Below, piece by piece: positions 7,639 through 8,938 of a stretch of DNA of 64,000 nt. Numbering within the stretch: position 1 is the first letter of the stretch; each line of letters opens with the position of its first letter. The DNA comes from the human T2T-CHM13v2.0 reference genome, Homo sapiens, in assembly GCF_009914755.1 (NCBI RefSeq), contig NC_060926.1, one strand, 5' to 3'. The notes beneath the pieces are model-generated. The model saw only the letters and a program-made list of their open reading frames with translations, was not told the DNA's origin and ran no database searches. Position numbers and translations under genes: made by a program.

Positions 7639-7949
7639 AACCGGCCACAGTGGCTTGTGTCTGTAATCCCAGCACTTTGGGAAGCTGAGGTGGGTGGATT
7701 ACTTGAGGTCGGGAGTTCGAGACCAGCCTGGCCAGCGTGGTGAAACCCCGACTCTACTAAAAATAAATAAAAATAAATTGGCCGGGTGTGGTGGTGCGTG
7801 CCCGTAATCCCAGCCGCTTGGGAGGCTGAGGCAGGAGAATCGCTTGAGCCTGGGAGGTAGAGGTTGCAGTGAGTCAAGATCGTGCCGCTGTACTCCAGCC
7901 TGGGCGACAGAGAAAGACTCCATCTCAAAAAAAAAAAAAAAAAAAAAAA
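7639..7949 (+). mobile_element. AluS (Sz/Sx-like), A>G rich
   Basis: Full dimer with poly(A); TSD-like aaagagatact / aaagagttact. Confidence 0.92.
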
Positions 7950-8024
7950 GAGTTACTTAGTAATTCACAGAAATTCCAGGGAGGCTGGAAAACCAGGCTT
8001 GAAGGCTAAGGCAGCCAGTGTGGG

Positions 8025-8155
8025 TACTGTCAGATAAAATACAGGATCCTCAGGCAAATCTCGATGTCATTTGGAACATACTTATTTGTTCTTAACCTGA
8101 AGTTCAAATTTAAATGGACATCTGGTATTTTTATTTGCAAAATCTGGCCACCCTA
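8025..8155. mobile_element. MER53-like hAT DNA transposon remnant
   Basis: cagataaaatacagga... and ...tgaagttcaaatttaa...gtatttttatttgcaaaatctggccacccta terminal inverted motifs. Confidence 0.65.
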
Positions 8156-8444
8156 GCCAAGGTGGCTAATTGCCTAAATTATACTCTGAGATGATTCTAG
8201 GTGCTGATACCAGCGATGTTACCCAGCCCTGACTCTGAGCAGGAGATGCCCCCCCACCAGGTCTCTGCCAGCTCTGACTCTGAAAACTTGCTGTCCCACC
8301 CTGAACCTGTTCCTCATGGATCCCCCTTTATACACCTCTCCAAATCGAGGTCTTGAACAGAAGTCCAATAGCCAATCAATCAAAAAAAGATGCCCATTCT
8401 CACCAGTAATCGGGGAAATGCAAGTTAAGACAAAGGATCGCATT

Positions 8445-8590
8445 GGTGAGTCAGTGGGTAGTAATTAAGAGCCTGGACCCTGTGGCCAGACAATGTGGAT
8501 TTGCATCTCGGCTTGGTGGTGTGTTTGGCACTGTGCCTCAATTTCCTCCTCTGTAAAGTGCGGGTAGTAGTCTTACCTCAATACATTTGA
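8445..8590 (+). mobile_element. MIR fragment
   Basis: Core tgtgcctcaatttcctcctctgtaaagtg. Confidence 0.65.
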
Positions 8591-8626
8591 AGAATGTATT
8601 TCTAAATTTCTAATATGCTTTGAAGT

Positions 8627-8938
8627 TTTGTTTTGTTTTTGTTTTTGTTTTTTTTTTGACACGGAGTTTCCCTCTTGTTGCCCAGGCTGGAGTGCAGTGG
8701 CACGGTCTCGGCTCACCACAACCTCCGCCTGCCGGGTTCGGGTGCTTCTCCTGCCTCAGCCTCTCGAGTGGCTGGGATTGCAGGCATGCGCCACCAAGCC
8801 CGGCTAATTTTGTATTTTTGGTAGAGACAGGGTTTCTCCGTGTTGGTCAGTCTGGTCTCGAACTCCCGACCTCAGGTGATCTGCCCGCCTTGGCTTCCTA
8901 AAGTGTTGGGATTACAGGCATGAGCCACCGTGCCGGCG
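8627..8938 (-). mobile_element. AluSp, A>G rich on the + strand
   Basis: Sp diagnostics (gagtttc.ctcttgttgccc, ctcacc.caacc, aactcccgacctcagg); TSD ttgaagtttt on both sides. Confidence 0.92.

What the first reader, a model, noticed from the sequence alone, without database searches (positions are those of the whole stretch)
7639..8938. Fossilised ADAR A-to-I editing: an inverted Alu pair with strand-biased A>G changes reverse-transcribed into the genome
Seen: a sense AluS (7639-7949) and an antisense AluSp (8627-8938), ~680 bp apart, lie inside the L1-transduced segment. Against recalled consensus, + strand A>G changes occur at 7657, 7711, 7735, 7737, 7780, 7816, 7848, 7887 (sense Alu) and 8697, 8705, 8740, 8741, 8770, 8780, 8820, 8840 (antisense Alu). 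That is about 16 A>G versus about 2 T>C (7803, 7815). The bias follows the L1 transcript strand, not Alu orientation, and several sites are in ADAR-preferred UA/UAG contexts (aattAgcc, gagtAgct, gattAcag, ttttAgta). The similar-aged AluS at 46852 shows about 1 A>G. Established: nearby inverted Alus form dsRNA that ADAR edits, and reverse transcriptase copies inosine as G. Inference: the read-through L1 RNA folded, was hyper-edited in the germline, and was then inserted by TPRT, making RNA editing a heritable DNA change. Caveat: 7711, 7848 and 8697 coincide with subfamily-diagnostic positions, and counts are manual.
Basis: partly seen in the sequence, partly recalled or inferred. Interest (0 to 1): 0.92.

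Follow-up and report, generated by a model that had tools for sequence, protein, structure and literature searches.

The report
ADAR-edited RNA copied back into DNA
A 2-kb stretch copied from chromosome 16 to chromosome 2 through an RNA intermediate carries a one-strand excess of A-to-G changes inside its two inverted Alu repeats, the mark expected if RNA editing was frozen into inherited DNA.

Summary
Window 7626-9670 has one other copy in this genome, G000:C16:80902937-80904971 on the minus strand. That copy is the source. The window copy sits behind an L1 3' end, stops 12 nt after an AATAAA, carries an A-rich tail and splits an Alu.

Inside the two inverted Alus, 20 of 125 source A's are G in the window. 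The other transition classes give 4/159 G>A, 4/129 T>C and 5/151 C>T (chi-square p=5e-5). Outside the Alus, 12 of 424 A's changed. The bias follows the RNA strand in both Alus, not Alu orientation.

A majority of 95 unselected Alus, plus 28 Alu2-like copies for one site, assigns 11 A>G to the window lineage and none to the source lineage. The other 5 are already G in the source. Nine more sites are ambiguous, six of them possibly CpG decay in the source.

All 20 sites lie in the predicted Alu-Alu duplex. The adjacent L1 shows no such bias (8/646).

Weak points: no L1 flanks the source in this assembly, no outgroup was available, and the neighbour motif is only suggestive. Eight literature searches found no printed L1 or retrocopy case.

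The parts
5564..5684 (+). Left half of the target Alu that the insertion split. It ends in the Alu's A-rich middle linker.
   Evidence: Alu matches end at 5684-5688. The right half resumes at about 9700.
5685..5685 (+). Single G at the 5' junction that belongs neither to the L1 nor to the Alu linker. With 5681-5684 it reads TAAAG, which recurs at 7622-7626.
   Evidence: 6 of 7 long L1 relatives align from 5686 and 1 from 5692. The 5 of these 7 with upstream sequence shown that aligned from 5686 have T, not G, before that point.
5686..7625 (+). 5'-truncated L1 3' portion (end of ORF2 and the 3' UTR) with its own patterned A-rich tail, about 7590-7625.
   Evidence: The best pairwise identity to other L1 copies is 96-97% (40 of 8055 candidates scored). 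Private changes are 29/1648.
7626..9670 (+). Segment copied from G000:C16:80904971-80902937 (minus strand) through an RNA intermediate.
   Evidence: end-to-end alignment with 94% identity overall and 98% in the spacer. Homology starts and stops abruptly. Only these two copies turned up in two searches of the genome, which score only the best candidates.
7639..7949 (+). Alu1, sense, the 5' arm of the RNA duplex. It has 9 source-A/window-G sites, 5 of them assigned to the window lineage.
8627..8938 (-). Alu2, antisense, the 3' arm of the RNA duplex. It has 11 source-A/window-G sites on the + strand, 6 of them assigned to the window lineage.
9653..9658 (+). AATAAA polyadenylation signal used by the source transcript. 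Homology to C16 ends 12 nt downstream.
9671..9699 (+). A-rich tail of the retrotransposed RNA, absent at the C16 source. It merges into the target Alu's linker.
9700..9888 (+). Right half of the target Alu.
   Evidence: (D1, D2).

Best explanation
A polyadenylated RNA carrying the C16 segment was made in a germline or early-embryo cell of an ancestral primate. Most simply it was the read-through 3' flank of an L1 that has since been lost. Its two inverted Alus paired into a duplex of about 260 bp. ADAR deaminated roughly 9-16% of the adenosines in that duplex to inosine. L1 reverse transcriptase read each inosine as G during target-primed reverse transcription into the A-rich linker of an Alu on chromosome 2. 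The edits therefore became inherited A-to-G substitutions on the strand that matches the RNA.

Shown here: the source and the direction of copying, the strand-specific A>G excess confined to the two Alus, and the predicted duplex.

Inferred: that the enzyme was ADAR, that the RNA started in an L1, and the age. The age is about 10-25 Myr, from 2.2% spacer divergence, 1.8% private L1 changes and an assumed rate of about 0.5-1e-9 per site per year.
For: (1) Source and direction. There is one other copy, on C16. The window copy has the L1 upstream, ends 12 nt after AATAAA, has an A-rich tail and splits an Alu. The C16 copy runs on into unrelated sequence at both ends.

(2) Lineage-symmetry test, which needs no polarisation. 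In the Alus there are 20 source-A/window-G sites against 4 source-G/window-A (binomial p=0.0015). The T/C classes are 4 and 5. Chi-square over the four classes gives p=5.4e-5.

(3) Localisation. A>G is 20/125 A's in the Alus, 2/193 in the spacer between them, 10/231 in the 3' unique part and 8/646 in the adjacent L1.

(4) Polarisation. At 10 sites, 75-93 of 95 unselected Alus carry the source base. At the eleventh, 8697, 26 of 28 Alu2-like copies carry it. This gives A>G 11, T>C 2 in the window lineage, and A>G 0 in the source lineage (11/125 vs 0/125 p=8e-4; Poisson against the L1 background rate 8e-7).

(5) The same RNA strand is affected in both Alus. In Alu-sense terms it is A>G in Alu1 and T>C in Alu2.

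(6) In the MFE fold of the source RNA, 256-258 Alu1 bases pair with Alu2. All 20 sites lie in that duplex, 12 in A:U pairs and 8 opposite C.

(7) The 5' neighbour rates for the 11 firm sites are U 4/18, A 3/33, C 3/39 and G 1/35. The site contexts come and the background counts. G depletion upstream is the published ADAR motif (PMC4365171, passages read).

(8) Five to ten changes per Alu in one molecule fits the 7.27 +/- 3.76 edits per cloned Alu transcript, and the A-C mismatch preference, reported in PMC2777429 (passages).
Against: No outgroup was available. All polarisation rests on Alu majorities, and the unique parts cannot be polarised at all.

Nine of the 20 sites have the window base equal to the Alu majority. 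Six of them (7719, 7784, 7882, 8710, 8766, 8868) are CA in the source against CG in the window, so they may be ordinary CpG decay in the source. CpG decay counts of 8 in the source against 5 in the window are not unusual (p=0.58).

Over all 20 sites the 5' neighbour is C in 11, which is not the ADAR optimum. G depletion is only p=0.059. A 3' G is not enriched (7 of 20 against 42 of 125 in the background).

Two T>C changes (7803, 7815) are not explained by editing of this strand.

The 28 Alu2-like copies used for site 8697 were chosen by similarity to the source Alu, which biases them towards the source base.

No young L1 lies next to the source in this assembly.

ADAR1 was reported not to edit L1 RNA detectably in a cell assay, although that assay had no inverted Alus (PMC5224506, passages).
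Confidence: 0.77

Rival explanations
1. Ordinary point mutation after the copying event. CpG decay (CG>CA) and a few other G>A changes occurred in the C16 source, some A>G changes occurred in the window, and the strand bias is chance.
For: Six of the 20 sites are CpG sites where the window keeps the Alu-majority CG. Three more non-CpG sites (7739, 8686, 8736) also have the window base equal to the majority. The counts are small.
Against: It leaves 11 window-lineage A>G against 2 T>C (p=0.022) and against 0 in the source lineage (p=8e-4). About 1.5 would be expected from the L1-part rate (Poisson 8e-7). It also requires G>A 9-10 against C>T 2 in the source lineage. The spacer between the Alus shows 2 A>G in 193 A's.
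Confidence: 0.1
2. The editing is real, but the RNA was not an L1 read-through transcript. Either a 5'-truncated retrocopy of a C16 polymerase II transcript inserted first and an L1 later landed at its 5' edge, or reverse transcriptase switched from the C16 RNA to an L1 RNA within one event.
For: No young L1 flanks the source on C16. There is only an old, diverged L1 3' end about 200 bp upstream. The G at 5685 is neither L1 nor Alu, and TAAAG occurs both just before the L1 (5681-5685) and at the end of its tail (7622-7626). This would be a 5-nt target-site duplication of a separate L1 insertion.
Against: Two independent insertions within 5 nt of each other are unlikely a priori. The layout (L1 3' end, its own A-rich tail, unique flank, polyadenylation signal, second tail) is the usual one for 3' transduction; that description is recalled, not from a call. 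The private divergence of the L1 (1.8%) matches the per-lineage divergence of the segment (1.1-1.9%), which fits one event. A single filler base at an L1 5' junction is not rare (recalled).
Confidence: 0.25
3. A local DNA-level bias at the chromosome 2 locus produced the G excess after insertion. Candidates are GC-biased gene conversion and transcription- or replication-linked strand asymmetry.
For: The window copy is the G-richer one overall: 32 source-A/window-G against 9 of the reverse.
Against: GC-biased conversion would raise T>C as much as A>G, but the counts are 20 against 4. The spacer (2/193) and the adjacent L1 (8/646 A>G, 2/342 T>C) show no such bias.
Confidence: 0.03
4. Error-prone reverse transcription, through misincorporation opposite A or a nucleotide-pool imbalance, produced the A>G changes without any RNA editing.
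For: The changes do date to the copying step.
Against: Errors of that kind should spread over the whole 4-kb cDNA. Instead the rate is 16% per A in the duplex arms, 1.0% in the spacer and 1.2% in the L1.
Confidence: 0.05

Closest known systems
ADAR-type A>G hypermutation fixed in retroviral DNA (Rous-associated virus, avian leukosis virus). Cited in PMC12925331, section on other retroviruses (passages read), referring to Hajjar & Linial 1995 and Felder et al. 1994 (not read).
   Same: An RNA with an inverted repeat is deaminated, reverse transcriptase reads inosine as G, and the DNA copy keeps clustered A>G changes on the RNA strand.
   Different: Here the reverse transcriptase is the L1 machinery. 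The duplex is a cellular inverted Alu pair and the product is an inherited primate locus. About 9-16% of A's are changed, against nearly 50% in the viral case.
Hyper-editing of inverted Alu pairs in human transcripts (PMC4365171, PMC3197674, PMC2777429; passages and abstracts read).
   Same: An inverted Alu lies about 680 nt away; the mean distance for hyper-edited Alus is 814 nt. There are many edits per molecule, A-C mismatches are favoured and G is depleted upstream.
   Different: Those are RNA-DNA differences seen in cDNA. Here the record is in genomic DNA, read against the source locus.
L1 3' transduction.
   Same: The layout is L1 3' end with its own A-rich tail, then unique flank from another chromosome, then a downstream AATAAA and a second tail, inserted at an A-rich site.
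   Different: The source locus in this assembly has no adjacent L1 of that age, and the target-site duplication is 4 nt or less and uninformative.
APOBEC3 DNA editing of retroelements (PMC2873906, passages read).
   Same: A deaminase mark is frozen into a retrotransposed copy and is detected as clustered one-type mismatches between related copies.
   Different: APOBEC3 gives G>A on the plus strand by acting on the cDNA. Here G>A is 4/159 and the excess is A>G, so the RNA was the substrate.

Membership tests
ADAR A-to-I hyper-editing signature | Long double-stranded RNA formed within one transcript | tested here: met
   The arms are 78-81% complementary. The MFE fold pairs 256-258 Alu1 bases with Alu2. 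This is a prediction, not a measurement.
ADAR A-to-I hyper-editing signature | Clustered A>G on the transcribed strand only, with other classes at background | tested here: met
   The classes are 20, 4, 4 and 5 (p=5.4e-5). The rate is 20/125 in the Alus against 12/424 outside. The same RNA strand is affected in both Alus.
ADAR A-to-I hyper-editing signature | The ancestral base is A | tested here: inconclusive
   Met for 11 of 20 sites by the Alu majority. Nine of 20 have the window base equal to the majority. No outgroup genome was available.
ADAR A-to-I hyper-editing signature | G depleted 5' and enriched 3' of the sites | tested here: inconclusive
   5' G: 2/35 against 18/90 for the other bases (p=0.059). 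For the 11 firm sites the order is U>A>C>G. 3' G: 7 of 20 against a background of 42 of 125, so no enrichment.
ADAR A-to-I hyper-editing signature | Inosine or editing seen in RNA from the source Alus | not testable with these tools
   No RNA data or editing catalogue was held.
L1 3' transduction | L1 3' end with its own tail, followed by unique non-L1 sequence that ends at a downstream polyadenylation signal and a second tail | tested here: met
   AATAAA lies at 9653-9658 and the tail runs from 9671.
L1 3' transduction | The unique sequence lies directly 3' of a progenitor L1 at its source locus | tested here: inconclusive
   The source locus was found, but no young L1 lies next to it in this one assembly. 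Other haplotypes and species could not be checked.
L1 3' transduction | One target-site duplication flanks the whole unit | tested here: inconclusive
   At most TAAA (4 nt), which cannot be told from the tail. TAAAG also flanks the L1 alone.
APOBEC3-edited retroelement | Clustered G>A on the plus strand of the copy | tested here: not met
   G>A is 4/159 in the Alus and 9 over the whole segment, against 32 A>G.

The most novel reading that the evidence does not exclude
This locus is a dated germline instance in which ADAR hyper-editing of a cellular inverted-Alu RNA was written into inherited DNA by the L1 machinery. If so, RNA editing followed by retrotransposition is a real, strand-specific burst-mutation route in primate genomes. 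It should then be detectable genome-wide in transductions, retrocopies and SVA or Alu-containing copies that carry inverted repeats. It would also record that ADAR acted on L1-associated RNA in the germline more than 10 Myr ago.
Probability: 0.7. Interest if true: 0.75.

Novelty: new variant of a known kind. Interest (0 to 1): 0.66.

Why it matters
Each step is established separately: ADAR edits inverted Alus, reverse transcriptases read inosine as G, and L1 mobilises flanking and cellular RNAs. The chain from RNA editing to heritable DNA has been documented for retroviruses. Eight full-text searches found no case for human L1-mediated copies. That library lacks most subscription journals, so a printed case may exist.

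A source-and-copy pair with an internal control is a clean natural experiment. Here the control is the spacer, the L1 and the source lineage. The pair gives a single-molecule snapshot of editing in an ancestral germline or embryo. It shows that a hyper-edited RNA can still be retrotransposed. It also defines a simple genome-wide test: RNA-strand A>G excess between copy and source, confined to inverted repeats.

The practical consequences are modest. Such bursts would inflate age estimates for affected repeats and mimic subfamily-diagnostic changes.

Tried and rejected

The Rfam scan of the window gave one hit, an SRP/Alu-like match at 52115-52260, which is irrelevant here.

A search for sibling copies using the L1-tail/segment junction found only the window and the C16 source. 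The other 7 hits had 2 mismatches, fewer than the reversed-pattern control. So no sibling is available to serve as an outgroup.

The first Alu majority, from 28 copies, mis-called decayed CpG sites such as 7695 and 8743. It was replaced by 95 unselected copies.

The first L1 control was spoiled by non-homologous flanks of short L1 relatives. It was repeated with those stretches masked.

The preference for A opposite C (8 of 20 sites) was considered as independent support and dropped. CpG decay in the source would create the same A-C mismatches.

The 3' unique part shows 10 A>G against 4, 5 and 7 for the other classes, and 7 of those 10 are in predicted pairs against 79 of 221 unchanged A's (p=0.042). 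A 2-kb MFE fold is too unreliable to build on, so this is left as a weak hint.

The gene or transcript at the C16 source was not identified, because no annotation was held for that region.

GC-biased conversion, APOBEC3 editing and reverse-transcriptase error were each considered and rejected (see the rival explanations).

Full report
ANATOMY

The window holds an Alu split in its A-rich linker. The left half is 5564-5684 and the right half is about 9700-9888. The insert is about 4 kb and has three parts:

- A 5'-truncated L1 3' portion at 5686-7625, with its own patterned A-rich tail. Six of 7 long L1 relatives align from 5686 and 1 from 5692.
- A 2045-bp non-L1 segment at 7626-9670.
- An A-rich tail from 9671.

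The segment contains a sense Alu (7639-7949) and an antisense Alu (8627-8938), about 680 bp apart. Their arms are 78-81% complementary (I2 and I3).

THE SOURCE

The unique spacer 7965-8620 has one other full-length match in the window's genome, G000:C16:80903992-80904646 on the minus strand, at 98% identity. The remaining 38 matches cover under 100 bases of the 656-base query.

After I fetched C16:80900501-80914500, window 7626-9670 aligned end to end with C16:80904971-80902937 (94%, 95 mismatches). Homology starts at the first base after the L1 tail. It stops 12 nt after an AATAAA (9653-9658). Beyond that point the window has an A-rich tail, while C16 runs on into unrelated sequence.

C16 is therefore the source and the window holds an RNA-mediated copy. 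The RNA strand is the window's + strand. A 21-nt junction pattern occurs only in these two places. The other 7 hits have 2 mismatches, fewer than the reversed-pattern control, so there are no sibling copies.

THE SUBSTITUTION SPECTRUM

Source-to-window differences by region:

| Region | Differences / aligned bases | A>G | G>A | T>C | C>T |
|---|---|---|---|---|---|
| Alu1 | 22/298 | 9 | 2 | 2 | 3 |
| Spacer | 15/675 | 2 | 1 | 4 | 2 |
| Alu2 | 25/312 | 11 | 2 | 2 | 2 |
| 3' unique part | 38/728 | 10 | 4 | 5 | 7 |

Four of the Alu2 differences lie in its T-rich tail and depend on the alignment.

Per base, 20 of 125 source A's in the Alu bodies are G in the window. Outside the Alus the figure is 12 of 424 (Fisher p=7e-7). 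Within the Alus, T>C is 4/129, G>A 4/159 and C>T 5/151.

If both lineages had evolved alike, source-A/window-G and source-G/window-A would be equally common. They are 20 against 4 (p=0.0015). Over the four transition classes, chi-square gives p=5.4e-5. This test needs no ancestral state.

POLARISATION

I aligned the four focal Alus with 28 other Alus, and then with 95 unselected Alus plus 28 Alu2-like copies from fetched loci.

At eleven sites the source base is the majority base:

- The sites are 7711, 7735, 7780, 7816, 7887, 8697, 8705, 8740, 8741, 8770 and 8780.
- At ten of them, 75-93 of 95 unselected Alus carry the source base.
- At 8697, 26 of 28 Alu2-like copies carry it. That set was picked by likeness to the source Alu, so it is biased towards the source base.
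- These eleven are window-lineage A>G changes.

Window-lineage T>C is 2 (7803, 7815). Source-lineage A>G is 0. The tests give 11 against 2 (p=0.022), 11/125 against 0/125 (p=8e-4), and Poisson 8e-7 against the background rate.

At nine sites the window base equals the Alu majority: 7719, 7739, 7784, 7882, 8686, 8710, 8736, 8766 and 8868. Six of them are CA in the source against CG in the window, so they may be CpG decay in the source. CpG decay counts of 8 in the source against 5 in the window are unremarkable (p=0.58). Alternatively, these nine were already A in the common ancestor and were edited back to G. The number of edits is therefore 11 to 20.

CONTROLS

- Among 28 other Alus, the mean is A>G 1.5 and T>C 1.6 in Alu-sense orientation, with a maximum of 5. 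The window's Alu1 has A>G 7. The window's Alu2 has sense T>C 6, which is + strand A>G. Their source copies have 2 and 1. The bias therefore follows the RNA strand, not Alu orientation.
- The spacer between the Alus shows 2 A>G in 193 A's.
- In the adjacent L1, private changes against 20 relatives are A>G 8/646, T>C 2/342 and 29/1648 in all. This rules out a local chromosome 2 bias and GC-biased conversion. It also gives the L1 about the same age as the segment.

STRUCTURE AND CONTEXT

The MFE fold of the source RNA pairs 256-258 Alu1 bases with Alu2. All 20 sites lie in that duplex, 12 in A:U pairs and 8 opposite C. The A-opposite-C class is confounded with CpG decay, so I do not count it as independent support.

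The 5' neighbour of the 20 sites is C in 11, U in 4, A in 3 and G in 2. The background is C 39, U 18, A 33 and G 35. G depletion gives p=0.059. For the 11 firm sites the per-class rates are U 4/18, A 3/33, C 3/39 and G 1/35 (site contexts, background). A 3' G is not enriched: 7 of 20 against 42 of 125.

Published hyper-edited sites show G depleted upstream and enriched downstream. The mean distance from a hyper-edited Alu to the nearest inverted Alu is 814 nt (PMC4365171, passages). Cloned transcripts of one edited Alu carried 7.27 +/- 3.76 edits each and preferred A-C mismatches (PMC2777429, passages). The 5-10 changes per Alu seen here fit that picture.

HOW THE RNA AROSE

The layout is the usual one for L1 3' transduction; that description is recalled, not from a call. 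However, the C16 source has no young L1 next to it in this assembly. There is only an old, diverged L1 3' end about 200 bp upstream. Three routes remain:

- The source L1 allele was lost. I think this the most likely route.
- Reverse transcriptase switched templates.
- Two insertions occurred.

The two-insertion route gets some support from the G at 5685, which is neither L1 nor Alu. It also gets support from TAAAG at both 5681-5685 and 7622-7626. The editing inference holds under all three routes.

LITERATURE

Eight full-text searches found no printed case of ADAR-edited RNA fixed by L1-mediated retrotransposition in a genome. The library lacks most subscription journals.

The closest precedent is A>G hyper-mutation in Rous-associated and avian leukosis virus DNA, in an inverted-repeat region (PMC12925331, passages).

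PMC2873906 treats G>A clusters in retroelements as APOBEC DNA editing and A>G clusters as RNA editing in cDNA traces (passages). PMC5224506 found no editing in about 2.5 kb of a transfected L1 RNA (passages). That construct had no inverted Alus.

VERDICT

The strand-specific, Alu-confined A>G excess is statistically solid. ADAR editing of the RNA intermediate is the best explanation, with confidence about 0.77. What is missing is an outgroup, the source L1 and RNA evidence.

Noticed in passing
window 5681-5685 and 7622-7626: TAAAG lies directly before the L1 5' end and again at the end of the L1 tail. The G at 5685 matches neither L1 relatives (T there) nor the Alu linker. This could be a 5-nt target-site duplication of a separate L1 insertion, or a single filler base.
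   Followed up: partly
L009 4680-4890 (minus strand), that is C16 about 200-400 bp upstream of the source segment: An old, strongly diverged L1 3' end sits just upstream of the source segment. It is not the L1 found in the window, and BLAST found no match to window 5687-7625 there.
   Followed up: partly
window 8939-9670: The 3' unique part is more diverged from the source than the spacer (38/728 against 15/675, p=0.003). It has 10 A>G against 4 G>A, 5 T>C and 7 C>T. Seven of the 10 are in predicted pairs, against 79 of 221 unchanged A's (p=0.042). This may be CpG content plus some spill-over editing, and it is unresolved.
   Followed up: partly
window 7735-7741 and 8735-8745: Two tight clusters of differences. 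At 7738, 7739 and 7741 the source departs from the Alu majority at three positions within 4 bp. At 8735-8736 the source has a dinucleotide change, while the window has four changes at 8740-8745. These look like multi-nucleotide events in one lineage or the other.
   Followed up: no
window 7803, 7815: Two window-lineage T>C changes in Alu1. In the predicted duplex, 7815 pairs with 8770, itself an A>G site, so that pair went from U:A to C:G. This may be chance, or editing of an antisense strand, and it is not explained.
   Followed up: no
window 7925-7951, 9186 and 9243: Length differences from the source. The Alu1 A-tail is 25 A in the window and 12 in the source. There is a 5-nt loss in a TATGA tandem repeat and a 3-nt gain near 9243.
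   Followed up: no
window 52115-52260: The only Rfam hit at gathering score in the 64 kb is Metazoa_SRP (70.2 bits, threshold 70). It lies inside an Alu at 51989-52269, so it is most likely the Alu's 7SL ancestry and not an SRP RNA gene.
   Followed up: no
window 7597-7763: The RefSeq 'silencer' feature given by the hub covers the L1 tail, the junction and the first 125 bp of Alu1, including the edited sites 7711 and 7735. No test of any link was made.
   Followed up: no
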